Shown: positions 27,438-48,288 of the stretch, piece after piece
How positions within the stretch are numbered: the stretch's first letter is position 1
How the letters are laid out: every line of letters starts with the position of its first letter
Origin: a virus
Lineage: Duplodnaviria > Caudoviricetes
Strand: one strand, 5' to 3'
DNA length: 64,000 bases
Virus record (IMG/VR): IMGVR_UViG_3300030330_005139
Program-made: the position numbers and the translations under genes
Notes under the pieces: model-generated
Database searches by the model: none
What the model was told of the DNA's origin: nothing
The model's input: the letters and a program-made list of their open reading frames with translations, nothing else

Positions 27438-30344
27438 ATGATGGACGATTTATTAAGACAACATTTTGTTGGCCGGGATGGATACACCTGGTGGGTAGGA
27501 CAGATTGCTCCTGAGGAGACTTGGAAGAATAACATTCCTGGACAACCAGAACCAGATAACACTTCGATTCTTGGTTTCTCTGAGAGATACCGTGTGAGAA
27601 TCATGGGTTATCACACAGACAGCACATTTGATGTTGCAGACGAGGAACTCCCCTGGGCATACATCATGTACCCAGTCACTGCTGGTGGTGGAGGTAGATC
27701 ATCTTACCAGTCATCCAACATTGCTGCTGGTAACTTCGTCATTGGTTTCTTCATTGATGGACCCAACGCACAACTCCCCATCATCCAAGGAATTATTGGT
27801 AACAATGATTACCAAGAAGTGATGAAGGAGTTGAATGGTGATAAGAGATTTGTCCCTATAACTGGCAACCAACCAGGTGAAAAGGTTTCAACTTTATTGG
27901 TAAAGGCAACTCCTGGTGCTGGAGAAACTGCTCCACAAGAAAACTCAACTGGTGCCACAACCAATAAGGATTACGTTGAGAGCACGACAGGAAATAACAC
28001 TCAGACAGATTTCCAATCTCAAGAGAGTAGGAAAAGCGGTCAAAGGGACAAACCTCTTGCTGAAACACAAGAGTGTGATCCAGCACAAACTGGCAAATTC
28101 CAACAACAGTTGCAAAACGCTCTTCGGGATATTCAAGAGCTCCAGAGGTCAATTTATGACACAAGGAGTGCATTAGCATTGGAGACATCTGACATTCAGG
28201 CAGAGATTGATGCCAAGATTGACGAGGCTTCTAAGTTGATTTCAGGAACAATCAAGAACGGAATCAATGAAGTTGAGGCAGCCATTCAGAGAGAAACCAA
28301 TGAAAAACTAAAACAGGCTTACAACAAGGTCTTCCCTAATGAGATGCCTGGCGTCATGAAGACAACAGAGAAAGTTGTAGACGCACTTGCTTGTGCATTT
28401 AGAGAACAGGTTAATGGCACAGGAGGAACAGTTGCAGATATGTTGGGATTGGCATCAAACAGAATGGTCAACGCTGACAACTGTGCTGCTGAGATTGCAA
28501 TGGGGATCTTGTATGGTATTGCTGTGGGTGGTGCCTCTAAATCACTAGGAGAAGGACTTGGTGATCTCGCTACTGATGTCGTTGATGACACCACTGGGAT
28601 TGTTGGTGACGCCGCTGGTGATATTGTTGGAACTGTTAGTGGTACAGCAGATCAAGCTCTTGGTGCCGCTGGTGACGTTGTTGGGGCTGTTGGTGATCTA
28701 ACATCGGCAATCTCAGATGTCACAAGTGGTGCTAAAAGTTTTGTCAAGGATCCTTTGTCATTCTTGGGTTGTGAAGAGGACCCTAAGTGTAACACAGTCA
28801 CAATTTACAGTCTGTGGAATGGGTCAAAAGTGAGTGGAAAACCTGGCATTTCAGGGGTGATGGACTCAATGAAAAACTCTGTTGATTCTGTAACAGGAGT
28901 TGTTGATGCAGTAACAGGCACCCCAGATGATATTGAAAGTATTTTGAATGAGACTCTGGGAGAATTTCAAAATCTCTTCAATAATCCAAACTGTGATAGT
29001 GGACCCAACAGTGCAAAAGAATGTGGACCACCAACAACCAAGTACATGAACACTGGTGGTGGTTCTGGTGCTTCTGGAAATGTCATTGTCAGTGTAGCTG
29101 GTGAGGTTCTTGGTTACGATCCCATTGATTTTGGAACTGGTTATTCAAAAAACACAACTGCTTATATTGATGACGATTGTGGAACTGGAAGTGGTGCTGT
29201 CGTTAAACCAGTCATTGAAGACTACACCTACACAGATGATGAAGGCAATGAAGTGAAAACCCAAGGTGTTGTTGACCTGATTGTTCTTGATCCTGGAGCA
29301 GATTACACACCAACACCAAATGGAAACAAAGGTGGATTTGGAAGTGTGTGGAAGTATTCAAATGAAACTCTTATCACTCATCCTGATAAAACATTTGACC
29401 CACCCATTCCTCCTGGTTATGAAGTTGAGGTGACACCTGGTGATGGAGTCGAACTCCCACCTGGAACGGAGATTGTCACTGAACCGACCTCACCTAATGA
29501 GACAACTGGTGAAACTGGTGGTGAGACAATCGTTGGTGGAGCCACTCACATCGTCCAACGTCCTGGAATATTTACAACTCCTTTCCCACTTGACAAACCA
29601 GTCGGAGAGAGTTATCCTTCAGAATCAGATGGTGCTTATCCTGTTCTTCTTTATCTTTGTGAGATCATCATTCAGGAAGCTGGTGTTGGTTATCAAACAG
29701 GAGATGAAGTTGTCATTGAACCGTCTTATGGTGCAACCGCAGTCATGGAGGCAGACAATGTTGGAAGAGTAAATAAGGTTAAAGTTACCGCAGGAGGAGA
29801 GGGTTTCAAAGAAATGCCACTGATTTATGTCAGATCGGCAACTGGTTTCAACTCTGTCTTAAGTGCCAAGTTCTGTGTCAGACAGGTTGGCAAGGATGAG
29901 ATGTTCGAACCAGAAACTCAGGAAAAAGTGGTCACAGTCGTTAACTGTGTTGGAGCAAGACCAGTTGGATATGTAAATGGGAAACCATATTATGGTCCAT
30001 TCCACACACATAATGGCAGAAAGATGGTGGGAGCGGTACACACCTCCACTCCTCATGACTTTATTGATGATGTCCCCATCGTCCGAACACCTCTCCCCGA
30101 GGTTGAGGTTAGAAGTTCATCAACAACATCCACACCAGCGTCAACGTCAACAACACCGACACCGACACCCACTTCAACTCCAGTCCAAGCTCCGGTCCCA
30201 ACACCCACTCCAACACCTGCCCCGAGCCCAGCACCTGCCCCGAGCCCAGCACCTGCTCCGAGTCCAACTCCGAGCCCTGCTCCATCACCAAGTCCAAGTC
30301 CAAGTCCATCACCAGGTGGTGGAGGAGGATATGGAGGTTATTGA
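27438..30344 (+). CDS. gp5: Baseplate hub/spike gp5-like protein with Pro-rich tail
   Basis: WWVGQI, RYRVRIMGYH, LPWA, GFFIDG OB-fold motifs. Confidence 0.8.
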   Translation: MMDDLLRQHFVGRDGYTWWVGQIAPEETWKNNIPGQPEPDNTSILGFSERYRVRIMGYHTDSTFDVADEELPWAYIMYPVTAGGGGRSSYQSSNIAAGNFVIGFFIDGPNAQLPIIQGIIGNNDYQEVMKELNGDKRFVPITGNQPGEKVSTLLVKATPGAGETAPQENSTGATTNKDYVESTTGNNTQTDFQSQESRKSGQRDKPLAETQECDPAQTGKFQQQLQNALRDIQELQRSIYDTRSALALETSDIQAEIDAKIDEASKLISGTIKNGINEVEAAIQRETNEKLKQAYNKVFPNEMPGVMKTTEKVVDALACAFREQVNGTGGTVADMLGLASNRMVNADNCAAEIAMGILYGIAVGGASKSLGEGLGDLATDVVDDTTGIVGDAAGDIVGTVSGTADQALGAAGDVVGAVGDLTSAISDVTSGAKSFVKDPLSFLGCEEDPKCNTVTIYSLWNGSKVSGKPGISGVMDSMKNSVDSVTGVVDAVTGTPDDIESILNETLGEFQNLFNNPNCDSGPNSAKECGPPTTKYMNTGGGSGASGNVIVSVAGEVLGYDPIDFGTGYSKNTTAYIDDDCGTGSGAVVKPVIEDYTYTDDEGNEVKTQGVVDLIVLDPGADYTPTPNGNKGGFGSVWKYSNETLITHPDKTFDPPIPPGYEVEVTPGDGVELPPGTEIVTEPTSPNETTGETGGETIVGGATHIVQRPGIFTTPFPLDKPVGESYPSESDGAYPVLLYLCEIIIQEAGVGYQTGDEVVIEPSYGATAVMEADNVGRVNKVKVTAGGEGFKEMPLIYVRSATGFNSVLSAKFCVRQVGKDEMFEPETQEKVVTVVNCVGARPVGYVNGKPYYGPFHTHNGRKMVGAVHTSTPHDFIDDVPIVRTPLPEVEVRSSSTTSTPASTSTTPTPTPTSTPVQAPVPTPTPTPAPSPAPAPSPAPAPSPTPSPAPSPSPSPSPSPGGGGGYGGY
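30200..30315 (+). repeat. Coding tandem repeats (PAPSPA/PS)
   Basis: cctgccccgagcccagca x2 plus variants; ccaagt repeats. Confidence 0.8.
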
Positions 30345-32965: not shown

Positions 32966-35900
32966 ATGCCCCTATCTCGATTAGATAACTTCCTCAAAAA
33001 CGTAAGAGGTAACGTAATCTACGTTGCAGGAAATGACCTGGATGCAACAGACGATATTGCCAATCAAGGCAATTCTAGGTCAAGACCCTTCCTGACAATT
33101 CAAAGAGCACTTCTTGAAGCGGTCAGGTTCTCTTATCAGATTGGTCTAAACAACGACAGGTTTGAATACACAACCATCGTCGTTGAACCTGGAGTTTATT
33201 ATGTTGATAATAGACCTGGTTGGATTCCCGATGGCGAAAACTTCAGACTCAGAAGTGGTGAAGTTACTGCCACTTACGAGGAGATGAATGCAAGGACAAA
33301 CTTTAACCTGCAGGATCCCAACAACAGACTTTATACTATTAATAGTATCTACGGCGGTGTTATTGTTCCCCGTGGATGTAGTATTGTAAGTGTTGATGCG
33401 GATAAGACTCAGATCAGACCCCTTTATATTCCGAGCTCGACGAACGAAAATATTGATCCAACAACGATCTTTAGAATCACAAGTGGAAGTTCTATTGACA
33501 GTTTGACATTCTTTGATGGTGACCCAACAAGCACTGTTTATACTGATTATACAACCACCAGAGTCAATCCTGACTATTCTCACCACAAACTGTCATCCAT
33601 TGAATATGTGGATGGTGTAAATGATGTGGACATTAAAGATGAATTTATTGATTATTCTACAAATCGTACAGATTTGCAGATGTATTATGAGAAGATTTCC
33701 ATTCTTTATGGTCAGAGTTCCAACAGACCTATCACCCCCACTTATCCTGCAGATGGTGTTGACCTCCAACCCCTCAGTAATGAATTTGAGATCATCTCTG
33801 TAAGTGAAATTTCAGAAACTGGAATTAGTAGCATCAAAGCCGGTGACGGTACAACTGCAACAATCACAATTACTGTTGATCTTGAAGATCCAATTGATGG
33901 AATTGAGATCAATGACCTCATCGAGATTGATGGAGTTTCCGATTCCCGTTACAACGGCAGATTTGTTGTTGACACTGTTCTTGCTCAGAATGATTTTGGT
34001 GTAACTCGATTCACTTATAAGACTCTTGTTGCTCCTGATAATGCTCTCCCAACGCCTTCTGGTTCATTCTTTACATTATCTGTTGACACAATCAATTCCC
34101 CAATTCCTAAGATTTCTAAAGTTTGTGTCAAGTCATCTTATGGTCTCTCTGGTCTGTTCTTTGATGGAGATAAGATTGGTGGAACAAAACAAACAACGGT
34201 AATTGGTTTTGATTATGAATCTTTCCAGAATGATAACAATGCTTTCATTCGTTATAACAGTTCAAGTGGAACATTTGACGATTCAACCTCTGTGAGTAAT
34301 CTTCACAGTGATTCTTCTGCAAAGTTTAAACCTGATTTTTATAATTACGGAGTCAAAGCAACAAATGATGTTGAGATTGAACTCGACAGTTGTGCCTTCA
34401 CTGGTGCTTACCAACACATTTGTTCAGAGAATGGAGCGAGAGTCTTCTCCAGATCTGCGACCTCTAATTTTGGACAGAGTTCCATGTGCTCAAGAGGATT
34501 TACTGACTCCTCCACAACAAGAGAAGACACTGGTTATATCTCCCACATCATCTCCCCAAAATCAAACCTCAACGACCCCATCAAGCTTGAGTGGGATCAG
34601 ATTGATGTTGAGAGAACTGCTGGAATTGGTTCCACATCCAGACTTTATCTTTACAATGAGACGAACAAGTCCAATCCACCTAAGTCAACACTTCAGGGTT
34701 ATCACATTGGTGCAGCGGATAATGATCAGTTGAGGGTCAGAATTCATGAGTCAGATTATCACGCTGACATTGTGATGCCTCCAACTGAGAAGGATGCAAT
34801 CAAGATCACTGGAACAAAGCGTTACAATGTTGGTAGAAATGTCTCAACAGGAAACAGCATTACCTCAAACACTCTGACACTCACTAGCAATCATTCACTT
34901 CTGAATGGTGAGACAATCAGAGTTATCAGTGATAATGCCAGACTTCCCGATGGTCTTGACTCTGGTTCGATTTATTACTCAATCACATCTGGTGTGAGTG
35001 CCGACCAACTAAAAATTGCAAAAACTTATAATGACGCAGTTCTTGGTGAAGCACTCACAATCAATAACTTGGGTGGAACACTGAGCGTTGAGAGTCGTGT
35101 TTCCGATAAGGATCCTGGAGATCTTGGACACCCAGTTCAGTTTGATGACTCTGTTAATCAGTGGTTCATTACAGTTGCAGAAAGTGCAACCGATAACACA
35201 ATTTACCACGTTGTTGTTGGTCTTGGAACTGCTACTCTTGGTGAAACCACGTCTTCAACTCTGTTTGAGAGAACTCCTGACACAAGGTCACTGACTGACA
35301 GGATTTATCGTTATCGTTATGTCATTCCTGTTTCTTCTGGAATCTCTTCGGCAAAAGTTCCTTATAACGGACAAGTCATCCAATCGTCCTCCGATGTGAG
35401 TGGTGCAACTAACGACGAGGTTGCTCTTCTTTACAGCCCCAGTGGTGTCTCGATGACCAACGCTGGTGAACTAAGAAACCCAAGTTACATCAAACAGACA
35501 ACTTACAGTGGAACCACTGCCTCTTACTTCACTGAGAGGAGACACAATCTTGCAGTGGGTAACATGGTTAAGATTGATAATGTCACCAGCTCCATCAACC
35601 CCACTGGTGTTGGTAACTCTGGTTACAATGGAGAGTTTACTGTTACTGGAATCACCAGTGCAACTGGTTTCACTGTCACTCTTGCGGATAACCCTGGAAC
35701 ATTCAGTAACAACACCTCTTCAAGAACAACAAGTCTCCCCACCTTCTCTCGTAACGAAGGTAATCACGATTTTTACATTTACAACACAGAAACCATTCAG
35801 GACTTCATTCCTGGATCGAGAGATGGAATTTATTATTTGACCGTTCTTAAGTCGTCAAACACTCCCACAGTTTCTCCATTCAATGATGAAGATCAGTTCG

Positions 35901-38794
35901 CCTTTAGTTCTCCCATAAAAGATCTTTATCCTCAAATTGACAGGGACAATCCTGTTAATAACCCTCCTGCTGCAAGTCTTTACGCTCTCCCCTATGAACT
36001 GGGAACAGTTGTTGTTGATGACCAGAAGAACAGTGTCACCAGAGGGATACTTGAGGAGTCTTATCTCGACTTTGGTGTTGGAATTGGTGTCAGTGACATC
36101 ACTTCGACAGACGCTGACACTCACACAATCTTCACTGATGTTGAGCATGGTCTCAACAGAATCACATCTCTGACCATCACAAATGGTGGTGCAGGTTATG
36201 GTAACGGTGTTGGTGCTGAGAACATTTACAACGCTGGACTGACAACCACGAGTAAAGCAGGAGGAGCAACTGCCAGAATCACAGTTGATGCTTCTGGAAC
36301 AATCACCGCAGTTAAGGTGATGGAAGGTGGTTCAGGTTATGCTGTTGGTGACACTCTGGAAGTGACAGGAACAGCAACCACAACTGGTTACTCGGTTGCA
36401 ACACTAACAGTTGCTAACATTTACGATAACACTGGAGACACAGTTGTTGTTGCTGGTGTTGGTTCTGAGACTTATTCTGGTTACAATGGACTTTACGCCA
36501 TTACTGGAATCACAACAGCAAAAGAAATCTCAGTAACCTCTGTAGAGAGTGTTTCTGGATTCACTACTACTGGTGTTGGTGCAACACTCACAAGTTCCTC
36601 TTTCACTAATGTGACTGGAGTTAGACTAGACATTTCTTCTCTGGTTTATAACAATGTAACTGGATTGGCAACAGTTACGACAGTTCAAAATCACGGATTG
36701 GTTGCTGGTAATCCCATTAAAATTGCTGGAGCGACTGATGACCTTTACAACAAACTGGTCCCAACAACTGAAATTGTTGGACTCACAACATTCATCGCTA
36801 AGATTGGAGTTTCAACTGACTCCCCTGCAGTTTCTGGAACACTGAGAGGTTACAAACCATGCGACGAATCGGCAGCTGGTTCGGTCAATTCCTCAAATGA
36901 GAATTTGGGTGGAAGAGCAGCGAAAATTTATGATGGTCCAACTGGAATTACAACCACACTCTCTGATGGAATTGTAACTCCATCTGTGGCTGAGATTGAA
37001 ATCTCCAACGTCGAGAACTTCAACTTTGAGATTGGTGACTTCCTTCAGATTGATGATGAGATATTGAGGATCAAATCAACTGTAACAGGAAACCCTGTCT
37101 CTGTGTTTAGAGGTGTTCTCTCAACAGAAGCTTCAACTCACGAGATTGGAAGTGTTGTGAGAAGAGTTAAGGTTCTCCCACGGGAATTGAGAGATCCCTC
37201 ATTGGTGTCCTCCAATGGCCACGTCTTCAACTCTGTTGGATTTGGACCTGGTAATCTTTCAACTTCTGCACCCAATAATCAAGCGATTTCTCTGTCCTCT
37301 GTTGAGCAGAAACACTCACATGCAAATAAAACCAACTCTGGTCAGATCATTTACAATGGAACTAACGAAAGAGCAGAGTACTTCGTCAACAACAGAAAGT
37401 TTGAAGCTGTAACAGGAAAAGAAATCATCTTTGATGTTCCAAACCCAACAGTAACTGGTGAAGACAGAGGTGCCTTTACAGATGAACCGAACGCCACCAG
37501 AGTTACTGCTGTAAGTGGTAACTTTGAAGGTGGAATTAGTGTTGATGGTGGTCCAGATGAGACAACAATCTCAACCTTTGATGGCCCTGTTGTTTTCTCC
37601 AACAAGGTAACGTCCACCTCCAATGATGGTCTGGAAGCAAACCACATCCTCATTCAGGGTGACTTGGATGTCTCCAGAAAGATCTCTGTCTCTGATGTCA
37701 TCCCAACAGAGGCAGGAAATGTTGGTGACATTGTTTATCATGGAGAACCAGTCACTGGTGGAACTCTTGGATGGGTTTATTCCTATCAGAATGAGTGGGT
37801 CACATTTGGCAGTGTTGGTCTTAACCCTCAAGGTGATGCACTTCTCACCAGAGTTGGTGTTGCAACAGCCACACTTGATGATGAACTGACAGTTCAAGTT
37901 GGGTCTGGTTCTTCACTGGTTGCAATTGATGAAACCGGTGTTGGAATTGGAACCACCGCTAACGAAGTGGCACTCAGAGTTGATGGTGAAGTTTACGCTA
38001 ACCTCTTCACTGGTGATGGTTCTGGACTGAGAAACCTCAGCAATGACAGTAAGTGGGCTGGAATTACAACTTATTATCCTATCGGACTGGCAGGTGTTGG
38101 TGTTGGAACAACCGCACCAGATGTGAATTACTCACTCACAGTGGGTTCACCTGGAACTGGTAAGACTGACCTCTTTGTTTATAACAAGGCAGTGTTTGCT
38201 GGTCAGGTTGAGTTTACGACAGGAAGTGGACTTGAAATCAACACTGGTGTTAGCAGCATCAGAACAGTTTACAGATTTGATCACCCCAGTGGTCAAATCA
38301 ACGCTGGAATTGTTACCACAACTTCCATTGTTGTTAACACTGACACACTTGTTTCTTCTGGCACAAGCATCGGCATTGGAACCACAGCACCAAATGCAGA
38401 TTTGGACATTGATGGTTCAACAAGATTGAAAACTTATCATGAAATCGTAAAAACAATTTCCAGTAACTCTGGAATTGCAATTATTGACCTCGCAGAAGCA
38501 CAAACATTCGCCATCACAGCGACTGAGGACATCACTGAGTTTACACTCACGAATGTTCCCACAAATTCCACAACAGCATTCACTCTGAAAATTACAAACG
38601 ATTCAACAACCGCAAGATCAATTACCGTCGATAACTTCAAGACCCCTGGTGGTTCTGTGATTGATGTTTATTGGCCTGGTGGCGTTGTTCCGACAGTAAC
38701 ACAGAGCACAGGTGCAGTTGACATTTATTCGTTCATGACTCTTGATGGTGGATCAACACTTTACGGCGCAACTAACGGACAGAACTTCTCATGA
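32966..38794 (+). CDS. Large virion structural / tail-fibre-like protein (1942 aa)
   Basis: MPLSRLDNFLKN, PFLTIQRAL, GGSGY and GIGTT repeats; TAAATA upstream. Confidence 0.75.
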   Translation: MPLSRLDNFLKNVRGNVIYVAGNDLDATDDIANQGNSRSRPFLTIQRALLEAVRFSYQIGLNNDRFEYTTIVVEPGVYYVDNRPGWIPDGENFRLRSGEVTATYEEMNARTNFNLQDPNNRLYTINSIYGGVIVPRGCSIVSVDADKTQIRPLYIPSSTNENIDPTTIFRITSGSSIDSLTFFDGDPTSTVYTDYTTTRVNPDYSHHKLSSIEYVDGVNDVDIKDEFIDYSTNRTDLQMYYEKISILYGQSSNRPITPTYPADGVDLQPLSNEFEIISVSEISETGISSIKAGDGTTATITITVDLEDPIDGIEINDLIEIDGVSDSRYNGRFVVDTVLAQNDFGVTRFTYKTLVAPDNALPTPSGSFFTLSVDTINSPIPKISKVCVKSSYGLSGLFFDGDKIGGTKQTTVIGFDYESFQNDNNAFIRYNSSSGTFDDSTSVSNLHSDSSAKFKPDFYNYGVKATNDVEIELDSCAFTGAYQHICSENGARVFSRSATSNFGQSSMCSRGFTDSSTTREDTGYISHIISPKSNLNDPIKLEWDQIDVERTAGIGSTSRLYLYNETNKSNPPKSTLQGYHIGAADNDQLRVRIHESDYHADIVMPPTEKDAIKITGTKRYNVGRNVSTGNSITSNTLTLTSNHSLLNGETIRVISDNARLPDGLDSGSIYYSITSGVSADQLKIAKTYNDAVLGEALTINNLGGTLSVESRVSDKDPGDLGHPVQFDDSVNQWFITVAESATDNTIYHVVVGLGTATLGETTSSTLFERTPDTRSLTDRIYRYRYVIPVSSGISSAKVPYNGQVIQSSSDVSGATNDEVALLYSPSGVSMTNAGELRNPSYIKQTTYSGTTASYFTERRHNLAVGNMVKIDNVTSSINPTGVGNSGYNGEFTVTGITSATGFTVTLADNPGTFSNNTSSRTTSLPTFSRNEGNHDFYIYNTETIQDFIPGSRDGIYYLTVLKSSNTPTVSPFNDEDQFAFSSPIKDLYPQIDRDNPVNNPPAASLYALPYELGTVVVDDQKNSVTRGILEESYLDFGVGIGVSDITSTDADTHTIFTDVEHGLNRITSLTITNGGAGYGNGVGAENIYNAGLTTTSKAGGATARITVDASGTITAVKVMEGGSGYAVGDTLEVTGTATTTGYSVATLTVANIYDNTGDTVVVAGVGSETYSGYNGLYAITGITTAKEISVTSVESVSGFTTTGVGATLTSSSFTNVTGVRLDISSLVYNNVTGLATVTTVQNHGLVAGNPIKIAGATDDLYNKLVPTTEIVGLTTFIAKIGVSTDSPAVSGTLRGYKPCDESAAGSVNSSNENLGGRAAKIYDGPTGITTTLSDGIVTPSVAEIEISNVENFNFEIGDFLQIDDEILRIKSTVTGNPVSVFRGVLSTEASTHEIGSVVRRVKVLPRELRDPSLVSSNGHVFNSVGFGPGNLSTSAPNNQAISLSSVEQKHSHANKTNSGQIIYNGTNERAEYFVNNRKFEAVTGKEIIFDVPNPTVTGEDRGAFTDEPNATRVTAVSGNFEGGISVDGGPDETTISTFDGPVVFSNKVTSTSNDGLEANHILIQGDLDVSRKISVSDVIPTEAGNVGDIVYHGEPVTGGTLGWVYSYQNEWVTFGSVGLNPQGDALLTRVGVATATLDDELTVQVGSGSSLVAIDETGVGIGTTANEVALRVDGEVYANLFTGDGSGLRNLSNDSKWAGITTYYPIGLAGVGVGTTAPDVNYSLTVGSPGTGKTDLFVYNKAVFAGQVEFTTGSGLEINTGVSSIRTVYRFDHPSGQINAGIVTTTSIVVNTDTLVSSGTSIGIGTTAPNADLDIDGSTRLKTYHEIVKTISSNSGIAIIDLAEAQTFAITATEDITEFTLTNVPTNSTTAFTLKITNDSTTARSITVDNFKTPGGSVIDVYWPGGVVPTVTQSTGAVDIYSFMTLDGGSTLYGATNGQNFS

Positions 38795-40466: not shown

Positions 40467-43400
40467 ATGGCAGAAAAGTCTTTTGTTGTAAGAAAGGGTC
40501 TTGAAGTTGCAGAAACTCTCATCTTTACCAATGATGAGATTAACAGTGTTGGAATTGCGTCCACTCAACCTGGTGGTAAGTTAACAGTCTCTGGAACCAT
40601 TGAAGGCGATGGAATTCGTTTGGTTGGTTTCAGCACTGCAGAAAGGGGTCTAAACATTGGTGTTGGTGGAACAGTTTTATCTGTTGAGACAAACACACAA
40701 AAGATTGGAGTTAACGAAGCGTCTCCATCGTTCCCACTGGAAGTCAAGGACCCAGCAGGAATTGGTGGGACAACTTTATTTGTGCATGGAAACATTGGAG
40801 TCAGCACCGACCTGATTGTTGATGAGACAGCAACGATTCAGAGAGACCTTACGGTCAATCGTCACTGTCTTGTCTCTGCTGCTGGCATCACAACATTAGC
40901 AAGTGAGACAAAGATTACTGGAGCAATCAGCGCTCATATCAACGCAACCAGCAGTCTTGCGGTTGGTTCGACTGCATCCTTTGGTGGAGCAGTTGCTTTC
41001 GCCAGTTCCATTGGTGGTCCTGAGGCACATATTGATGACCTGACTGTTAGACGCAACTTACATGTCAATGCAACAGGTTTCAGCACCATTGCAAGTGACC
41101 TGAGTGTGACTGGTAATGTCACAACTCACCTTGGAGTCACCAGCAGTCTCTCCATTGGTTCAACATCTGACTTCACTGGAGCAGTTGCTTTCGCCAGTTC
41201 GATTGGTGGTCCAGAAGCACACATTGATGACCTAACTGTCAGACGCAACTTGTTCGTCTCAAGTGCTGGTGTTGGTACCATTGCAGCAGACATTGCCATC
41301 ACTGGTTCTGTCACGGAACACCTTGGAGTTACCAGCAGTCTTTCCATTGGTTCCACTTCAGATTTCACTGGAGCAATCTCCTGTGCCAGTTCAATGACTG
41401 CTGTCACATTCTTTGGTGATGGTAATGGACTGACAAACATCAATCCAAGTGAAGTGAACTTGGATGGAACAGATCAAAGACTGGATGATCTGGACGTTGC
41501 CGGTGTCGGAACAGTCGCCACACTGGATGTTACTGGAGTTTCAACTTTCACAGGAGATGCCCACTTTGAGGCACAGATTGGAGTTGGAACAGCAGATCCA
41601 AAGACAGGATCTCTTCTTCATCTTTATGCCACTGCTCCTGAAATCTTCTTTGAGGAATCTGACGCACTTGCTGATAACAGAATTTGGTCTCAGAAAGTTG
41701 ATGGTGAAGAACTTCTCTTCGCTGCTGGTACCGATGCTCTTGGTTTTGGTACCACTCGGTTCAAGATGACTCGAACCCTCAACTCCATTGACACATTTGA
41801 AGCAGAGAAAGATGGAGAAACTTGGTTACTTGTTGACAACAGAGATAAGAGAGTTGGATTTGAAACTGCAGACCCAAAGGTTTCACTTCACGTTGTTGGT
41901 GACGCACAAGTAAGTGGTTTCTGTAGTGCAACCAACTTCTTTGGAGATGGTTCAGCACTCACCAACATTTCAGCATCTGAGGTTGACTTGGATGGAACCT
42001 ATCAAGACTTCCAAGGTCTGACTGTTGCTGGTGTTACCACACTCACAGAAGGATTGCGTTCAGTTGGATTTACAACTTTCCTTCAGAAGGTTCACATTCT
42101 CGATAACGTCCAACTTCAAATTGGTGGAGCAACAGAAGGTGCCACTGGAGACATGAGACTTTATCATGACACCACAAACAGTTTCATTGATGATAATGGA
42201 ACAGGTAATCTACAACTTAGAACTATCCTGGGAACAGGAATTGATATGATTGGTGGTGGTAGTACGGAGTACCTCTCAAGATTTATAAAAGATGGCGCTG
42301 TTGAACTTTATTATGACGGAAGTAAAAAATTAGAAACTCTCGAAGATGGTATTGATGTAACAGGTAATGTTGGGGGTGACACTTTAAACATCTCTGGAGT
42401 TGGAACCATCAGTGGTGGTTTGACAGGAAATGTGACTGGTAATGTTACTGGTGATCTGACTGGCACAGCCACTAACGCTACCAAGGTTAACATCGAGGGA
42501 TTGGATGCCACCGGAAACCGGGCCATCTTATTCCAGGGAGCCTCAGGAAATGCCGCCACCACTGAAGGTCGTGTTGCTTTGGCCTCCACTACTAACTATC
42601 CGAGGATTCAACCATCTACAGGAAAGATAACTGCTGCAGGTGGTGTTGTTGCCAATTTGACTGGTAATGTAACAGGTAACTTGACTGGTAATGTGACTGG
42701 CAGTGTCACGGGTAATGTGACGGGTGTTTCGACTGGATCAGATGCAGTCAAACTTACCACTGCAAGTGACGGAACAACCAGACAAATCCTCTTTGTTAGT
42801 GGGAGTAACACAGAATATGACGCCGTTGAGATTGACAGCGAATCCAGTGAGTTGACATACGTTCCATCAACAAACACATTCTCAGTTTCTAACATTGTTG
42901 GTGACTTGACTGGTAATGTTACAGGCAACGCAGACACAGCAACACTTGCAGCCACATCAACCATTGTTGCTGGTACTACAGCCTCCAGTTTCGTCAACTT
43001 CACTGATGGTGGAACAGGAGCACAGGCACTGAAGAGTGACACATCTTTGCGTTACACTCCCACATCACAGACACTTACAACTGGAACAGTTAATGCCGCT
43101 TTGACGGGTAATGTTACAGGTAATGTGACTGGTAACTTGACTGGTGATGTCACTGGTGATGTCACTGGTAACGCAGACACAGCAACAACTGCAACAAGTT
43201 CCACTAACATTCGGGTTGATTCTGATTCCACCAATGCTGATCGAATTATTGTATTCGCTGATAGTACAGGAACTAGCAAAAGAGCAAAGGCTGACACTAA
43301 CCTGACTTACAACCCATCCACAAACACACTGACAGCAGGAACTTATGACACAAGTTCTGACGAAAGAATCAAGAAAAACATCAATCCGATTGATGACGCT

Positions 43401-43619
43401 CTGGAGATTCTGAGTGAACTGAATGGTGTTAAGTTTGAGTGGAAAGAGAATGGTCTTCCTTCAGCAGGTGTCATTGCTCAGGATGTTGAGAAAGTTCTCC
43501 CAGAACTTGTCCATGAAGTTAACGAAGTCAAGAGAGTGAATTATGATGGACTTATCGGAGTCCTCATTGAATCAGTGAAGACTCTCACAAAGAGAGTTGA
43601 AGAACTTGAGAATAAATAA
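40467..43619 (+). CDS. Tail fibre with C-terminal intramolecular chaperone (peptidase S74)
   Basis: GNVT/GNLT repeats; TSSDERIKKNI...GVIAQDVE...VNYDGLI. Confidence 0.85.
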   Translation: MAEKSFVVRKGLEVAETLIFTNDEINSVGIASTQPGGKLTVSGTIEGDGIRLVGFSTAERGLNIGVGGTVLSVETNTQKIGVNEASPSFPLEVKDPAGIGGTTLFVHGNIGVSTDLIVDETATIQRDLTVNRHCLVSAAGITTLASETKITGAISAHINATSSLAVGSTASFGGAVAFASSIGGPEAHIDDLTVRRNLHVNATGFSTIASDLSVTGNVTTHLGVTSSLSIGSTSDFTGAVAFASSIGGPEAHIDDLTVRRNLFVSSAGVGTIAADIAITGSVTEHLGVTSSLSIGSTSDFTGAISCASSMTAVTFFGDGNGLTNINPSEVNLDGTDQRLDDLDVAGVGTVATLDVTGVSTFTGDAHFEAQIGVGTADPKTGSLLHLYATAPEIFFEESDALADNRIWSQKVDGEELLFAAGTDALGFGTTRFKMTRTLNSIDTFEAEKDGETWLLVDNRDKRVGFETADPKVSLHVVGDAQVSGFCSATNFFGDGSALTNISASEVDLDGTYQDFQGLTVAGVTTLTEGLRSVGFTTFLQKVHILDNVQLQIGGATEGATGDMRLYHDTTNSFIDDNGTGNLQLRTILGTGIDMIGGGSTEYLSRFIKDGAVELYYDGSKKLETLEDGIDVTGNVGGDTLNISGVGTISGGLTGNVTGNVTGDLTGTATNATKVNIEGLDATGNRAILFQGASGNAATTEGRVALASTTNYPRIQPSTGKITAAGGVVANLTGNVTGNLTGNVTGSVTGNVTGVSTGSDAVKLTTASDGTTRQILFVSGSNTEYDAVEIDSESSELTYVPSTNTFSVSNIVGDLTGNVTGNADTATLAATSTIVAGTTASSFVNFTDGGTGAQALKSDTSLRYTPTSQTLTTGTVNAALTGNVTGNVTGNLTGDVTGDVTGNADTATTATSSTNIRVDSDSTNADRIIVFADSTGTSKRAKADTNLTYNPSTNTLTAGTYDTSSDERIKKNINPIDDALEILSELNGVKFEWKENGLPSAGVIAQDVEKVLPELVHEVNEVKRVNYDGLIGVLIESVKTLTKRVEELENK

Positions 43620-43638: not shown

Positions 43639-44595
43639 ATGGCTGACAAGTATCAAGCGGGGGGATCGCTCCTTGCCGATAGTGAAGAGTTTCTAACAGG
43701 TAAAGATGGTACCTTCAGTGGAACGGTAAGTGCATCCGATTTCCATCTAACTGGAGGTATCCAGGCTGGATTGCCTTATCCAACTGGTACAGTTTTGTGG
43801 TGGCCAGCATCCTCAGCACCAACTGGTTGGAGGAAATGTAATGGTGATGCAATCAGCAGAACAACTTATTCTGATTTATTTGCACTCATTGGAACAACAT
43901 ATGGTTCTGGTAATGGTTCAACAACCTTCAACATTCCTACGATTAATGATGACCGTTTTATTCGGGGTTGGGGTAGTTCTGGTGGTCTTGATCCAGGGAG
44001 AACTTTTGGATCATCACAAAATAGTGACATAGGAAATCATAGTCACACATCAAACTCTGCCAATGCCCCACACACTCACACGGTGAACTCCAACGCCAAC
44101 CAGATGGGTCACAACCATCAGTTCGTGATTTCGGCAGCCAATATGCCACACCAACACAATGCCAACACTGGTGGTGCAAACGCTCCTCACAAACACGGCG
44201 GTAACGCGTCCGGCAATAACAATCACACCCACCCAATACGCAGAAGAGAAAACCGTTCGAACCCGGGCAATAACTATTCTGGACACTGGAACACCAACTC
44301 CCCGGCTGATAACGGCATGATGAGGCCTGCAGGAGGTCACAGCCACAATGTTGGTTTTGCAAATGCACAGGTTCCCCACAGTCATCCAGCCAACGTTGGT
44401 GCTGCCAATGCTCCTCACACTCACCCGACAGCTGTCGGGTCATCAAATGCTCCACACAATCATGGAACTAAGACCACTGCTGAAGCGAGTAATGTCTCAC
44501 ATACACACGCATTTGATGGTGGTGATGGTGGAGATAGTCCAGGGAACATAGTTAGGCCAGCTGCCTTCTCAATGATGGCTATTATCAAATTATAA
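43639..44595 (+). CDS. Tail collar-domain fibre with 11 HxH motifs (paralog 1)
   Basis: PTGW..CNG..ISRTTYSDLF collar domain; (N)APHxH repeats. Confidence 0.85.
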   Translation: MADKYQAGGSLLADSEEFLTGKDGTFSGTVSASDFHLTGGIQAGLPYPTGTVLWWPASSAPTGWRKCNGDAISRTTYSDLFALIGTTYGSGNGSTTFNIPTINDDRFIRGWGSSGGLDPGRTFGSSQNSDIGNHSHTSNSANAPHTHTVNSNANQMGHNHQFVISAANMPHQHNANTGGANAPHKHGGNASGNNNHTHPIRRRENRSNPGNNYSGHWNTNSPADNGMMRPAGGHSHNVGFANAQVPHSHPANVGAANAPHTHPTAVGSSNAPHNHGTKTTAEASNVSHTHAFDGGDGGDSPGNIVRPAAFSMMAIIKL

Positions 44596-44607
44596 GGAGG
44601 AATAAGA

Positions 44608-45513
44608 ATGCCATATAAAATAACAGGATCAGAAGTCGTTCAAGACGATCTTGACATATCTGGGAGAAATGCTACCTTTGTTGGTGTCGCAACTGCCGCG
44701 GCATTTGATGGTTTAAACGTAGCACCTACTGGTTCTATAGTTTGGTTCGCAGCTAATACAGCACCAACTGGTTGGCTTGCACTTGATGGTTCCAACGTCA
44801 GCAGAACAACTTATTCTAGATTATTCGCCATTTTTGGAACATCATTTGGTTCTGGTAATGGTTCAACAACCTTCGGGTTGCCTGACATGAGAGGTCGGTT
44901 CTTCAAACACCAAACGACCGGCAACGCGTTGACGAAGACAGGTGGAATTCCTCCACACAATCATTCACTTTCTGCCGCTAATGCAAAACACGAGCACCCT
45001 GGATCTAATTTCTCTAGCGTCAATGCACCACACGCTCATCCAGCCAACACTGGTAGTCACAACACTCCTCATTCTCATCCAGGAAATGCTGGTGGTGTAA
45101 ACGCTCCTCACGGTCATAACACAAACACAAATAATACAGGAGGTCACCACCATGAATTTACAGGAGCTGATGATATCGAAATTGACAACACTAGCTCCAG
45201 AGACAAATTTGTAAACGGCCCGGGTCCTCAGTCGCAAAATGCGAACACCTTCCCAGGTGGAGCTCATAGTCACCCCACAGTTAATTGCAACACTGTCAAT
45301 GCCCCACACAGCCATGCTGCGAACACCAGCAATAATCAGGTTCCCCATAATCACAGCTCGTCTATGACGAACACCAATGTTCCTCACACTCACCCAGCTA
45401 ACTTAAATACTGTTAACGCTCCACATAATCACGGTGCTGGTTCTCACACTGGCGGCGCCAGCAGTTATGTCAGACCCAAAAACATCGCTCTTCTTCCCAT
45501 CGTTAAGACCTGA
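44608..45513 (+). CDS. Tail collar-domain fibre with 11 HxH motifs (paralog 2)
   Basis: PTGWLALDG..SRTTYSRLF, PDMRGRF, RPKNIALL. Confidence 0.85.
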   Translation: MPYKITGSEVVQDDLDISGRNATFVGVATAAAFDGLNVAPTGSIVWFAANTAPTGWLALDGSNVSRTTYSRLFAIFGTSFGSGNGSTTFGLPDMRGRFFKHQTTGNALTKTGGIPPHNHSLSAANAKHEHPGSNFSSVNAPHAHPANTGSHNTPHSHPGNAGGVNAPHGHNTNTNNTGGHHHEFTGADDIEIDNTSSRDKFVNGPGPQSQNANTFPGGAHSHPTVNCNTVNAPHSHAANTSNNQVPHNHSSSMTNTNVPHTHPANLNTVNAPHNHGAGSHTGGASSYVRPKNIALLPIVKT

Positions 45514-45515
45514 TC

Positions 45516-46460
45516 ATGTCATTCAAAGTAGATTCTTCAACAATCATTGATAACAATCAAGATTATACATTCCAGGGAGGAACTTTCACAGGAACCTTAA
45601 CTTCCAATGGTGGGTTTAACTGGGGAGATGTTCCTGTTGGACTTATGCACTGGTGGGTTAAAAGTAACGTATCAGATCTCCCATCTAATTGGCTTCATTG
45701 TAATGGACAGGCAATCAGCAGAACAACTTATTCTGATTTATTTGCAGTCATTGGAACAACATATGGTTCTGGTAATGGTTCAACAACCTTCAACCTCCCT
45801 GACACCAGAAATCACTACATTATGGGTGATGTGTCTGGATCTGTTGGTGCTGGTCCACATGCACCAAAAATCTCTAACCACTCTCACCCCAGTAACACAT
45901 TAGGCCAAGCAGTAAACATTCCTCATACTCACACAGCGACTTCTGGTGGTGCGAACTCTCCACACACTCACAGCGCCAATACCTCTAACGCTTCCAATGC
46001 CCCACACACTCACAACGCGGCGACTAGTGCAGCCAACATGCCACACAGCCATAATGGCAGCACTGGCAACAATGGAAGTCACACTCATGCAGCCGGTACT
46101 GTTCCAACATCCGAAGTCGAAGCTTCGCCAGCTGGTAATCAAAATTATGCAGCCAAAAACGTAAGCCAACTCATTCCCGAGGGAACACGGCCTGCAGGAG
46201 GACACTCTCACCCCGTTGCTGGAACTGGAGCCAATGCTCCACATGGTCACATCTTGCCATGGTCTGGGAACGCACCTCATGGTCACACCGCCAACATCAA
46301 TCAATCAAACGCTCCACATAGTCACAGCTTATCGGTGAGTGACGCTAATGCTCCACATGTTCACAATACTGATGTAACAAATAACAACCCAGTTTCAGCC
46401 TCCAACAGTGGTGTGGAGTTGCATAGTTATCTCATGAGACTTATCATCAAGGTTACATAA
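45516..46460 (+). CDS. Tail collar-domain fibre with 11 HxH motifs (paralog 3)
   Basis: WLHCNGQAISRTTYSDLF; HxH repeats. Confidence 0.85.
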   Translation: MSFKVDSSTIIDNNQDYTFQGGTFTGTLTSNGGFNWGDVPVGLMHWWVKSNVSDLPSNWLHCNGQAISRTTYSDLFAVIGTTYGSGNGSTTFNLPDTRNHYIMGDVSGSVGAGPHAPKISNHSHPSNTLGQAVNIPHTHTATSGGANSPHTHSANTSNASNAPHTHNAATSAANMPHSHNGSTGNNGSHTHAAGTVPTSEVEASPAGNQNYAAKNVSQLIPEGTRPAGGHSHPVAGTGANAPHGHILPWSGNAPHGHTANINQSNAPHSHSLSVSDANAPHVHNTDVTNNNPVSASNSGVELHSYLMRLIIKVT

Positions 46461-46502: not shown

Positions 46503-47621
46503 ATGAGATCTAAATTATTTTCCATCCTTGGTAACTCATATAAAGTTATACCGAATTATATCTCAAAGAAAGAAGCAATCAGACTTGGGAAGAAATTTGA
46601 GAAGGAAACTCGCGAAAAGAATTTACCAGGTGAGGCTGGAAACCTTGTGGGAGAAAACCACAACGACGAATACATGAATCCAGATCATGTTGCTCTTCTT
46701 TCTGAGAAGACCAAGTTCCTAAACAAGTTGTTTGGGACAAAGGTTGTTCCAAGTTATTGTTATTCTCGTGTTTACAGATCGGGAACTCATCTCGGAAGAC
46801 ACAAAGACAGGCCTGCCTGTGAAGTATCTCTGAGTGTTCATCTCTATGGAACAAAAGAGTGGGCATTTGGTATTGTCGATAAAGATGGAAAAGACATTGA
46901 AGTTGTTCTTCAACCTGGTGATGCCATCATCTATGATGCACCTTATGCGGAACACTGGAGACCACCATTTCCAGGAAATGATGATGATGTTTATGTTCAA
47001 ACATTTCAACATTATGTCTTTTTGAATGGAAAGTTTGAGAATGAGATCTTTGACAAGAAGAACTCAGTAACGAGTGTTGGTATTTCTAATGACCTAAAGT
47101 CTCAGATTTTTCTCTCTAAGGGTGTCTTTACAAAGAAAGAATGTAAAGAGATCATTAAAAGGGCAATCAAAGTGGATGATTGGGAACCACAACAAACTGT
47201 GGGAAAACATGAAGGTGTCAGGGTTTGTGAAGGATGGTTTATTCCAAAAATAGAAGAGATTGACTCCTTAATACACAGTAAGGTTGGTGAGATTCTAAGA
47301 AAATCGGAGATCTATTATACTGAACTTGGAGGAAGTCCCCAAATTAATGAGGATCATGGTTATACAGTTTTGAAGTACATACCTGGTGGAAAGTATGATC
47401 AGCATATTGATCAGGGCCCAACTAACAACAGAGTTCTCACAATGATTATTGCTCTCAATGATGATTATGAGGGTGGTGAGGTTGAATTCTGGGACGGAAA
47501 ATATAAGTTAAGATTAAATAAGGGAGATGTTTTAGTTTTCCCCTCCAATTTCATGTTCCCCCATGCAATTGTTCCGATCAAATCAGGGGAAAGATATTCT
47601 ATTGTTACTTGGATCACTTGA
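46503..47621 (+). CDS. Two-domain 2OG-Fe(II) oxygenase (prolyl-hydroxylase-like)
   Basis: HKDRPACE...HWR and HID...YEGGE...HAIVPIKSGERYS. Confidence 0.85.
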   Translation: MRSKLFSILGNSYKVIPNYISKKEAIRLGKKFEKETREKNLPGEAGNLVGENHNDEYMNPDHVALLSEKTKFLNKLFGTKVVPSYCYSRVYRSGTHLGRHKDRPACEVSLSVHLYGTKEWAFGIVDKDGKDIEVVLQPGDAIIYDAPYAEHWRPPFPGNDDDVYVQTFQHYVFLNGKFENEIFDKKNSVTSVGISNDLKSQIFLSKGVFTKKECKEIIKRAIKVDDWEPQQTVGKHEGVRVCEGWFIPKIEEIDSLIHSKVGEILRKSEIYYTELGGSPQINEDHGYTVLKYIPGGKYDQHIDQGPTNNRVLTMIIALNDDYEGGEVEFWDGKYKLRLNKGDVLVFPSNFMFPHAIVPIKSGERYSIVTWIT

Positions 47622-47622
47622 T

Positions 47623-48288
47623 ATGAATTACGAACTTGAATTAATTGAAGAGATGAGGAAGGCTCACTCCAATGATGATTTTATAAGAGAATTTAAAGGA
47701 AACTTATCACCCAAAGTTTGTAAACAATTAATTGATCTGTTTGAGAAAGAGACATATCTCACTACTCCTGGACAAACTGGAGCTGGACTGGACACTACGA
47801 TCAAAGATAGTCTAGATCTAATGATAGGTTACGCAGTAGTAGAGTCCAAAAAAGAAAAAAGAAGAAAGAAGTGGGCGAAGTTGGATTCAATTCTCTGCGA
47901 TGCCTTGAGTAAAGGAGTTAAGGAATATTACAACGAATTTAAGGTTTTTGATGAAAAGTATCCACATGAGTGGACGGCATTTAACCATCCTGCACTTGTT
48001 GACACTGGATATCAAATTCAAAAGACGACTCCAAAATCTGGTGGATACGTTCCACACCATGATTCAAGGTCAGAATTCATAGAAGATCGCCCTCAGACAA
48101 GACAGCTGACATTCATCTGGTATCTAAACGATGTTGATGGTGGACCAACTGGGTTCATCACAGGGAAAGACATTCAACCAGAGGAAGGAAAGTTGGTTCT
48201 CTTCCCAGCAACATGGAACATGGTTCACTGGGGTGTTCCACCCAACACGGGAAACAAATATATTGTTACAGGTTGGTTGTATGATTGA
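47623..48288 (+). CDS. 2OG-Fe(II) oxygenase
   Basis: HHD, FIWYLNDV, GKLVLFPATW..H, KYIVTGW. Confidence 0.85.
   Translation: MNYELELIEEMRKAHSNDDFIREFKGNLSPKVCKQLIDLFEKETYLTTPGQTGAGLDTTIKDSLDLMIGYAVVESKKEKRRKKWAKLDSILCDALSKGVKEYYNEFKVFDEKYPHEWTAFNHPALVDTGYQIQKTTPKSGGYVPHHDSRSEFIEDRPQTRQLTFIWYLNDVDGGPTGFITGKDIQPEEGKLVLFPATWNMVHWGVPPNTGNKYIVTGWLYD

What the first reader, a model, noticed from the sequence alone, without database searches (positions are those of the whole stretch)
43639..46460. Three paralogous fibres with an identical 6+5 HxH register: candidate heterotrimeric metal needle
Seen: each protein has a collar domain, six HxH motifs at ~13-aa spacing, a 35-38-aa unrelated tip loop, then five HxH motifs. 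Counts are identical despite divergent sequence. Tip 1 is basic (RRRENR); tips 2 and 3 are acidic (DDIEID, SEVE). Established: in the T4 gp37 needle, HxH pairs from three identical chains bind Fe octahedrally in an out-and-back hairpin. Inference: these three chains co-assemble into one heterotrimer with ~11 metal sites and an asymmetric receptor-binding tip; the alternative is three homotrimers. Relevant to iron carriage by marine phages.
Basis: partly seen in the sequence, partly recalled or inferred. Interest (0 to 1): 0.8.

Follow-up and report, generated by a model that had tools for sequence, protein, structure and literature searches.

The report
Three-gene histidine needle fibre tip
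A marine T4-like cyanophage carries three adjacent genes for short fibre tips, each with eleven metal-binding His-x-His motifs in the same register; they most likely build one mixed three-chain needle, which has been shown for a virophage but not for a tailed phage.

Summary
Three tandem + strand genes (43639-44595, 44608-45513, 45516-46460) each encode a Pfam Collar domain, then 6 HxH motifs, a 35-38-aa unrelated tip, then 5 HxH. The paralogues are 34-40% identical. A profile of them matches the T4 gp37 needle tip (2XGF, E 2e-11).

An 11-site needle is not unusual. Single-gene, presumably homotrimeric needles with 11, 12, 15 and 19 HxH occur in other phages.

The unusual part is the triplet. 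It is kept intact in all five lineages found (62-91% identity), in position-specific clades and with coupled translation.

I favour one ABC heterotrimer (about 0.6) over three homotrimers (about 0.3), for four reasons:
- A 2025 paper shows a 1:1:1 heterotrimer for three consecutive collar proteins of virophage DSLV2.
- In my loci, tight runs of equal-length collar genes come only in threes.
- A library search found a fusion series: three separate genes, two modules fused plus one separate, three modules fused, six modules fused. HxH counts are mostly matched within each set.
- P2 and P3 have lost motifs that most single-gene relatives keep.

Nothing here proves assembly or metal content. The complex prediction gave no verdict.

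This scan has noted similar collar triplets on other DNA before. I class this as a new variant of a known kind, of moderate interest.

The parts
40467..43619 (+). Upstream 1050-aa tail fibre ending in a Peptidase_S74 (intramolecular chaperone) domain. Its stop lies 19 nt before P1. It is context and a possible docking partner.
   Evidence: Pfam PF13884 at residues 964-1016, E 2e-16. PHROG tail-fibre families. The same fibre-then-triplet order occurs in L064. Junction sequence.
43639..44595 (+). P1, 318 aa. It has a 47-aa N-terminal stalk, a collar domain and an 11-HxH needle. It is the only paralogue that keeps the long collar-to-needle linker.
   Evidence: ORF; Collar E 9.5e-20; HxH positions; alignment A6.
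43786..43938 (+). P1 collar domain (residues 50-100).
   Evidence: Pfam PF07484.
44038..44508 (+). P1 needle: HxH 1-6 going out, tip, HxH 7-11 coming back (residues 134-290).
   Evidence: profile match to the 2XGF needle.
44233..44337 (+). P1 tip loop, 35 aa, net charge +3 (an RRRENR cluster).
   Evidence: It is replaced in the L002 lineage (17% identity).
44608..45513 (+). P2, 301 aa, with collar and an 11-HxH needle. It starts 12 nt after the P1 stop, behind a GGAGG. Its linker is 9 residues shorter than that of P1.
   Evidence: (Collar E 2.5e-22).
45154..45264 (+). P2 tip loop, 37 aa, net charge -4 (a DDIEID cluster).
   Evidence: It is replaced in the L002 lineage (26% identity).
45516..46460 (+). 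P3, 314 aa, with collar and an 11-HxH needle. Its start lies 2 nt after the P2 stop, which suggests translational coupling. It lacks the family's C-terminal Arg-Pro motif.
   Evidence: (Collar E 1.9e-20).
46089..46202 (+). P3 tip loop, 38 aa, net charge -1.
   Evidence: 32% identity in the L002 lineage.
46503..48288 (+). Two 2OG-Fe(II) oxygenase genes directly downstream (372 aa with two domains, and 241 aa). They are context only; a link to the needles is not shown.
   Evidence: Pfam PF13640; PHROG. The same order is kept in L001, L003 and L244.

Best explanation
The three genes encode the A, B and C chains of one heterotrimeric receptor-binding fibre tip of a T4-like cyanomyovirus.

Proposed mechanism:
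- Each chain contributes a short N-terminal stalk and one third of a trimeric collar.
- Each chain then forms an out-and-back beta-hairpin. Its 6 outgoing and 5 returning HxH motifs interleave with those of the other two chains. This gives 11 stacked sites, each with six histidines, that hold metal ions (Fe2+ by analogy with T4 gp37).
- The three unrelated 35-38-aa loops at the turn form one asymmetric tip that contacts the host receptor.
- The genes are transcribed together and translationally coupled, which favours equal amounts of the three chains.

Shown here: gene structure, domain content, motif register, homology to gp37, conservation of the triplet, and the recurrence of collar modules in threes. 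Inferred: co-assembly, metal binding, receptor binding, and where the needle docks on the virion.
For: 1. Precedent. Three consecutive collar-domain, gp37-tip-like proteins of virophage DSLV2 co-purify through one tagged subunit. They run as a complex of about 55 kDa and form 16-nm fibres. Position-specific clades are kept in 44 virophages (PMC12724248).

2. The triplet is a fixed unit. All five lineages (91, 82, 74 and 62% identity to the window) keep three genes with 6+5 HxH each. Each position forms its own well-supported clade. Identity falls in lockstep at the three positions.

3. Runs of three. Among the unique tight runs of collar ORFs in 244 loci there were 180 singles and 5 pairs. One pair is a triplet cut by a contig end; the other four are unequal, one of them cut by a contig end and one with overlapping frames. 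There were 7 triplets from three families, each of equal length and equal HxH count (0/0/0, 1/1/1 and 11/11/11), and no run of four.

4. Fusion series. Among the best 150 library hits, 57 single chains hold three collar modules and 10 hold six. Of 47 three-module chains, 27 have equal HxH counts in all modules, against 2.65 in shuffles. Two-module P0212 (2+1 and 2+1 HxH) is followed 9 nt later by a one-module gene with 2+1 HxH. P0255 shows the same arrangement. AF2 folds three-module P0160 with pTM 0.67 and all three collars above pLDDT 90.

5. Division of labour. Only P1 keeps the long collar-to-needle linker. P3 lacks the C-terminal Arg-Pro motif in all four lineages checked, whereas 148 of 176 single-gene relatives have it.

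6. Tips change together. All three tips were replaced on the same branch (17, 26 and 32% identity, against 48-92% in the other regions). The charges of the P1 and P2 tips swapped on that branch (+3/-4 became -4/+3).

7. Coupled genes. The intergenic gaps are 12 nt and 2 nt, with no terminator between the genes.
Against: - Every solved collar or HxH fibre of a tailed phage is a homotrimer: T4 gp37 2XGF, T4 gp12, and the A-1(L) fibre 8KEC.
- Single-gene needles with 11, 12, 15 and 19 HxH exist. So 6+5 can be inherited from a homotrimeric ancestor, and a matched count is weak evidence.
- HxH spacings differ between the paralogues by 1-4 residues at several levels.
- Tip charge complementarity is not constant (0/-4/-2 in L244).
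- The tip replacement and the charge swap are one evolutionary event on one long branch.
- The run-length and fusion statistics are not corrected for relatedness. The best-150 list favours multi-module proteins because their scores add up.
- Two-module chains (56) are about as common as three-module ones, and only three of them were looked up.
- The evidence for DSLV2 is itself modest (one pull-down, one native gel), and I could not compare its sequences with these.
Confidence: 0.6

Rival explanations
1. The genes encode three separate homotrimeric fibre tips. Each paralogue trimerises with itself as gp37 does, giving three alternative receptor-binding needles per attachment site or per virion. 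This would broaden host range or allow sequential receptor recognition. The equal 6+5 register is then simply inherited from a single-gene ancestor and kept because one needle length suits the host envelope.
For: All solved relatives are homotrimers. Single-gene 6+5 needles exist in cyanophage ACG-2014f, in L004/L087 and in P0195, P0230, P0213 and P0251. Arrays of several receptor-binding proteins are common in phages (established knowledge). The three N-termini share one motif, so all three could use the same docking site in turn.
Against: This reading does not explain why tight runs are always three and never two or four. It does not explain why no lineage has lost or gained a copy. It does not explain why fused forms come as 3, 6 or 2+1 modules. 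It does not explain why P2 and P3 could shed motifs that most single-gene relatives keep. Homotrimers would also put nine arginines or twelve or more acidic residues together at a tip.
Confidence: 0.3
2. The chains mix combinatorially. Because they share register and the NAPHxH repeat, they may mix freely (AAB, ABC, BCC and so on), giving a population of fibres with varied tips.
For: All 11 HxH levels and the repeat consensus are shared by the three paralogues, so the needle core by itself would not enforce a fixed composition.
Against: The position-specific, conserved differences in the linker and the C-terminus point to fixed roles. So do the strict gene order and the fused forms with a fixed module order. 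The one studied case gives a single 1:1:1 species.
Confidence: 0.07

Closest known systems
Receptor-binding tip of the T4 long tail fibre, gp37 residues 785-1026 (PDB 2XGF; Bartual et al. 2010, as cited in PMC11705849)
   Same: It has a collar domain followed by an out-and-back needle, with HxH motifs on both strands and a tip loop at the turn. The profile of the window proteins matches it at E 2e-11 across all these parts. In gp37 each HxH from the three chains binds one Fe octahedrally.
   Different: gp37 is the C-terminal end of a long fibre protein (its tip construct ends at residue 1026) and a homotrimer with 7 metal sites. Here the module stands alone (about 310 aa), has 11 sites, and is present as three diverged tandem genes.
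Tripartite tail proteins of virophage DSLV2 (Chu et al., J Virol 2025, PMC12724248)
   Same: It has three consecutive, co-oriented genes, each with a collar domain and a gp37-tip-like fold. Their lengths are broadly similar, and position-specific clades are kept across relatives. They are reported to be related to Synechococcus phage tail proteins and shown to form a 1:1:1 heterotrimer.
   Different: The virophage proteins are shorter (196-247 aa), and the paper mentions neither HxH nor metal. They sit on a capsid, not on a contractile tail. In that paper the Synechococcus phage relative was modelled as a homotrimer. I could not test direct sequence relatedness to the window proteins.
Long tail fibre of Anabaena myophage A-1(L) (PDB 8KEC; PMC10966104)
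   Same: It is the best solved sequence match (E 1e-17) and has a collar followed by HxH motifs.
   Different: It is one gene. The entry holds 18 chains of one sequence (homo-oligomeric). It has fewer HxH motifs.
Single-gene needle-tipped fibres of other cyanomyoviruses (ACG-2014f 1959 aa; Sf-CH5 1970 aa; Sf-FR1 519 aa)
   Same: They have the same collar plus HxH needle: 6+5, 10+9 and 8+7 motifs. The ACG-2014f spacings are almost the same as those of P1.
   Different: In ACG-2014f and Sf-CH5 the needle is the C-terminal end of one long fibre gene (in Sf-FR1 the end of a 519-aa protein). In the window the fibre in the same position relative to Sf-CH5, behind the baseplate-hub gene (32966-38794), has no needle, and the needle module is split off and triplicated.
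T4 short tail fibre gp12 (PDB 1OCY, 1PDI, 5IV5)
   Same: It shares the collar domain (E 1e-8 to 5e-7).
   Different: gp12 is a homotrimer. By general knowledge it has a single HxH site that binds zinc. It has no long needle.

Membership tests
Phage tail collar domain proteins (Pfam PF07484) | Match to the Collar model above the curated cut-off (24 bits) | tested here: met
   70.8, 79.0 and 73.0 bits for the three proteins.
gp37-type needle receptor-binding tip (2XGF) | Sequence homology spanning the collar, outgoing needle, tip and returning needle | tested here: met
   Profile A6 against 2XGF: E 2.2e-11, profile positions 37-271 aligned to chain residues 25-223.
gp37-type needle receptor-binding tip (2XGF) | Repeated HxH motifs on both the outgoing and the returning strand | tested here: met
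   6+5 in each protein. All 22 motif histidines are invariant in 14 sequences.
gp37-type needle receptor-binding tip (2XGF) | The three-dimensional fold is an intertwined trimeric needle | tested here: inconclusive
   The AF2 monomer model of P1 has mean pLDDT 37, and only the collar is ordered. A fold search on it would be meaningless.
gp37-type needle receptor-binding tip (2XGF) | Homotrimer of identical chains | not testable with these tools
   This is the open question. Comparative evidence leans against it.
gp37-type needle receptor-binding tip (2XGF) | Octahedral Fe2+ at each HxH level | not testable with these tools
   It needs ICP-MS or a structure. Zinc or another metal is equally possible from the sequence alone.
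gp37-type needle receptor-binding tip (2XGF) | The module is the C-terminal end of a long fibre protein | tested here: not met
   These are stand-alone proteins of 301-318 aa with only 39-47 residues before the collar.
Tripartite heterotrimeric tail proteins, DSLV2 type (PMC12724248) | Three consecutive co-oriented genes, each with a collar domain | tested here: met
   The intergenic gaps are 12 and 2 nt.
Tripartite heterotrimeric tail proteins, DSLV2 type (PMC12724248) | Each position forms its own clade across relatives | tested here: met
   Support is 98/94, 100/96 and 100/97 for positions 1, 2 and 3.
Tripartite heterotrimeric tail proteins, DSLV2 type (PMC12724248) | 1:1:1 co-assembly of the three chains | not testable with these tools
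   It needs co-expression and pull-down or native mass spectrometry.
Tripartite heterotrimeric tail proteins, DSLV2 type (PMC12724248) | Direct sequence relatedness, position by position, to the DSLV2 proteins | not tested
The other triplet families I found (L064, L021) each cluster by themselves and not by position with the window's.

The most novel reading that the evidence does not exclude
The three chains form an obligate 1:1:1 heterotrimer. This would be the first mixed-chain receptor-binding fibre shown in a tailed phage. It would have 11 stacked six-histidine metal sites and a truly asymmetric tip. It would also be one instance of a general and largely unrecognised rule: collar-domain modules work in threes, whether encoded as three genes, as two fused modules plus one, or as three or six fused modules in one chain.
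Probability: 0.55. Interest if true: 0.7.

Novelty: new variant of a known kind. Interest (0 to 1): 0.55.

Why it matters
Phage receptor-binding fibres are taken to be homotrimers, and host-range prediction and fibre engineering build on that. A mixed three-chain needle would give an asymmetric binding tip encoded by three genes that can each vary. That changes how specificity evolves and how it should be read from genomes.

It also affects estimates of iron carried by marine phage tails (the 'Ferrojan horse' idea cited in PMC11705849). One mixed needle holds 11 metal sites, whereas three separate needles would hold 33 per set.

The test is cheap: co-express the three genes, pull down, weigh the complex and measure the metal. 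The fusion series found here gives independent computational support that extends beyond this phage.

Tried and rejected
- Complex prediction of P1+P2+P3 with orthologue alignments returned 'no answer'. The score was 0.38, and a control in which chain 1 was replaced scored 0.19. I do not use it for or against binding.
- The AF2 monomer of P1 on a 14-row alignment had mean pLDDT 37, so I ran no fold search on it.
- The AF2 model of the fused three-module protein P0160 has confident collars and pTM 0.67. No coordinates are given, so the pseudo-threefold packing could not be inspected. Foldseek against the PDB matched only single collar domains (gp12, gp37; about 68 residues at 2.4-3 A) and A-1(L) fibre chains at much higher rmsd (18-54 A).
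- Megablast of the region against phage records found nothing. The nearest held virus record, G001, is a 37-kb fragment without a collar gene.
- I tested whether the summed tip length of the three chains is conserved. It is 119 in four sets but 116 in L244, so I dropped the idea.
- I tested whether tip charge complementarity is conserved. It is only partly so: +3/-4/-1, +1/-5/+1, 0/-4/-2 and -4/+3/0.
- I considered the matched 6+5 count as an argument for co-assembly. It is weak, because 6+5 is frequent among single-gene relatives.
- The n+(n-1) pattern seen among relatives is not universal. gp37 itself reads 3+4 in the alignment, and 6+6 forms exist.
- A 124-aa alternative-frame ORF with 3 HxH at 29977 is a low-complexity artefact of the Pro/Thr/Ser-rich end of the baseplate-hub gene.
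Full report
**What is there**

The window is part of a T4-like cyanomyovirus. It holds a gp5-type baseplate hub (27438-30344), long tail-fibre genes and several 2OG-Fe(II) oxygenases.

They follow a 1050-aa fibre gene that ends in a Peptidase_S74 chaperone domain. The junctions are tight:
- fibre stop, then 19 nt with GAGGAGGAG, then P1;
- P1 stop, then 12 nt with GGAGG, then P2;
- P2 TGA, then 2 nt, then the P3 ATG.

No terminator-like site lies between the genes.

**Checking the observation**

- Each protein matches Pfam Collar at E 1e-20 to 3e-22.
- Each has exactly 11 HxH motifs, arranged 6+5. Spacings within a block are 11-15 residues, and the gap across the tip is 38-41 residues.
- In each protein 22 of the 24-27 histidines are in the motifs. 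Shuffles give about 2 HxH and at most 9.
- Pairwise identity is 34-40%.
- The tips are 35, 37 and 38 aa, unrelated in sequence, with net charges +3, -4 and -1.

**Relation to known fibres**

A profile of the three proteins and their orthologues hits the A-1(L) cyanophage long tail fibre (8KEC, E 1e-17). It hits the T4 gp37 needle tip (2XGF, E 2e-11) across collar, outgoing needle, tip and returning needle. It hits T4 gp12 over the collar only. These are therefore gp37-type needle tips by sequence. A monomer AF2 model was useless (pLDDT 37), as expected for a fold that exists only as an intertwined trimer.

**The 11-site needle is not special**

- Other cyanomyoviruses carry the same module at the C-terminal end of one fibre protein: ACG-2014f (1959 aa, 6+5, spacings nearly those of P1), Sf-CH5 (1970 aa, 10+9) and Sf-FR1 (519 aa, 8+7).
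- Stand-alone single genes with 11 or 12 HxH occur in small phages: L087 with an Mtd_N domain, P0195, P0230 and P0153.
- Among the relatives found, the counts run 2+1, 3+2, 4+3, 5+4 and 6+5.

A long metal needle is thus a known design. The shared 6+5 count could simply be inherited from a single-gene ancestor.

**The triplet is the unusual part**

Five lineages carry it: the window, L001/L084 (91%), L085 (82%), L244 (74%) and L002/L086 (62%). L003 and L245 are cut by contig ends.
- All complete copies have three genes, each 6+5, with nearly unchanged spacings.
- On a collar-domain tree each position forms its own starred clade.
- Identity to the window falls in step at the three positions: 91/90/88, 82/82/76, 74/78/71 and 63/64/59.
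- In annotated phage genomes every other cyanophage match is a single gene.

**Heterotrimer or three homotrimers?**

A literature search turned up a direct precedent, Chu et al., J Virol 2025 (PMC12724248). Three consecutive collar-domain, gp37-tip-like proteins of virophage DSLV2 co-purify through a tag on one subunit. They run as one complex of about 55 kDa and form 16-nm fibres. The triplet is conserved in 44 virophages with position-specific clades, and the proteins are said to be related to Synechococcus phage tail proteins. That paper mentions neither HxH nor metal.

My own comparative results point the same way.

1. *Run lengths.* I counted the unique tight runs of collar ORFs in the 244 loci held, which came from four collection scans plus three annotated phage regions. 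There were 180 singles and 5 pairs. One pair is a triplet cut by a contig end; the other four are unequal, one of them cut by a contig end and one with overlapping frames. There were 7 triplets and no run of four. The triplets fall into three families, each with equal lengths and equal HxH counts: 152/153/152 aa with none, 197/197/196 aa with one each, and the window clade with eleven each. The 197-aa triplet (L064) also follows an S74-chaperone fibre and shares the N-terminal motif of the window proteins.

2. *Fusion series.* A profile search of 1.84 billion representative proteins found many single chains with several collar modules. Among the best 150 hits, 12 had one module, 56 two, 57 three, 11 four, 3 five, 10 six and 1 eleven.
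   - Six-module chains read as two sets of three, for example 4/4/4 plus 3/3/3.
   - Of 47 three-module chains, 27 have equal HxH counts in all three modules, against 2.65 expected from shuffling. This control does not correct for relatedness.
   - I looked up three two-module proteins. P0212 (2+1 and 2+1 HxH) is followed 9 nt later by a one-module gene with 2+1 HxH, beside an M15-peptidase gene, which suggests a phage. P0255 is followed in the same way. The third, P0224, sits on a contig too short to tell.
   - This gives a Rosetta-stone series: 1+1+1, 2+1, 3 and 6. Homotrimers do not explain it. It follows naturally if three modules make one needle.
   - AF2 folds the three-module protein P0160 with pTM 0.67 and all three collars above pLDDT 90. 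I could not inspect the packing.

3. *Loss of family motifs.* Only P1 keeps the long collar-to-needle linker typical of the family. P2 lacks 9 residues of it and P3 lacks 7. P3 has replaced the C-terminal Arg-Pro motif in all four lineages checked, whereas 148 of 176 single-gene relatives keep it.

4. *Tips change together.* Within the closer lineages the tips are conserved about as well as the needle. On the branch to L002 all three were replaced at once (17, 26 and 32% identity, against 48-92% in the other regions). The charges of the P1 and P2 tips swapped on that branch. This is a single event, so it is suggestive only.

**What weakens the case**

- All solved phage relatives are homotrimers.
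- 6+5 is common among single-gene forms.
- HxH spacings differ between the paralogues by 1-4 residues at some levels. One-residue differences also occur between modules of fused proteins.
- Charge complementarity and the summed tip length are not constant.
- The best-150 list favours multi-module proteins.
- Two-module chains are as common as three-module ones, and most were not checked.
- The complex prediction gave no verdict and counts for nothing either way.

**Verdict**

I put one ABC heterotrimer with 11 six-histidine metal sites and an asymmetric tip at about 0.6. I put three separate homotrimeric needles at about 0.3 and free mixing at under 0.1. Metal identity, receptor and docking site are inferences. 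The recurring order of S74 fibre followed by triplet suggests that the needle docks on that fibre or is assembled with it, but nothing here shows this.

Earlier notes of this scan describe similar collar triplets in bacteria and in one freshwater phage, and cite the same paper. I treat them as leads, not as evidence.

The finding is a new variant of a known kind. The principle has been published for a virophage. A tailed-phage case with a long multi-metal needle has not, as far as the searched literature shows.

Noticed in passing
window 46503-48288; L020 2500-3171; L251 5343-6224; L027 9948-10568: 2OG-Fe(II) oxygenase genes sit just downstream of long HxH-needle genes. This holds in the window clade (also kept in L001, L003 and L244) and in unrelated small phages with a single 6+6 needle (L020, and L251/L252, where a tail-fibre assembly chaperone lies between). 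One also lies about 2.6 kb from the 152-aa triplet of L027. A fibre-modifying role (hydroxylation of Asn, Pro or His in the NAPHxH repeats) is possible but untested.
   Followed up: partly
window 40467-43619; L064 2-817: In two otherwise different contexts the collar triplet follows directly behind a fibre gene ending in a Peptidase_S74 intramolecular chaperone domain. The N-termini of the triplet proteins share a short motif (M-x-aromatic or Ile-K-V/I ... D). This suggests a conserved fibre-plus-tip module.
   Followed up: partly
window 32966-38794: The 1942-aa fibre lies, after three small genes, behind the baseplate-hub gene, as does the needle-tipped 1970-aa fibre of Sf-CH5 (ACG-2014f has a similar 1959-aa needle-tipped fibre). 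Here it has no HxH needle and ends in a different C-terminal domain (phrog_9017). The needle module seems to have been moved to separate genes in this clade.
   Followed up: no
P0121, P0127, P0141, P0171, P0149 (library proteins): Some giant proteins carry collar modules in sets of three. P0121 (4832 aa) has 11 modules with HxH counts 3/3/3, 4/4/4 ... 3/3/3. P0127 has 4/4/4 plus 3/3/3. P0149 has an N-terminus resembling a type IV pilin signal, followed by three 4-HxH modules. Their origin and function are unknown.
   Followed up: partly
P0160, P0197, P0206: Three representatives, less than 50% identical to one another, of a fused three-module family all show HxH counts 4/3/4. The middle module has lost the same motif in each, so one level would have four histidines instead of six.
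   Followed up: no
L021, L023, L027, L028, L029 (for example L027 5968-7358): These contigs carry tight triplets of 151-152-aa collar-only proteins with no HxH and 11-nt gaps. The contigs also carry PhoH, an exonuclease and a 2OG-Fe(II) oxygenase, so they look cyanophage-like. The triplets are not next to a fibre gene.
   Followed up: partly
L010, L011, L013 (2712-6552); L061: Three collar genes lie within 4 kb but are not abutting. Their HxH counts are 2+1, 2+1 and 3+2 in three contigs and 2+1 in all three genes of L061. This is a loose arrangement in which the counts need not match.
   Followed up: no
window 29946-30344: The C-terminal end of the baseplate-hub protein is a long Pro/Thr/Ser-rich low-complexity tail ending in a Gly-rich run. 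Its +1 frame gives a spurious His-rich ORF.
   Followed up: yes
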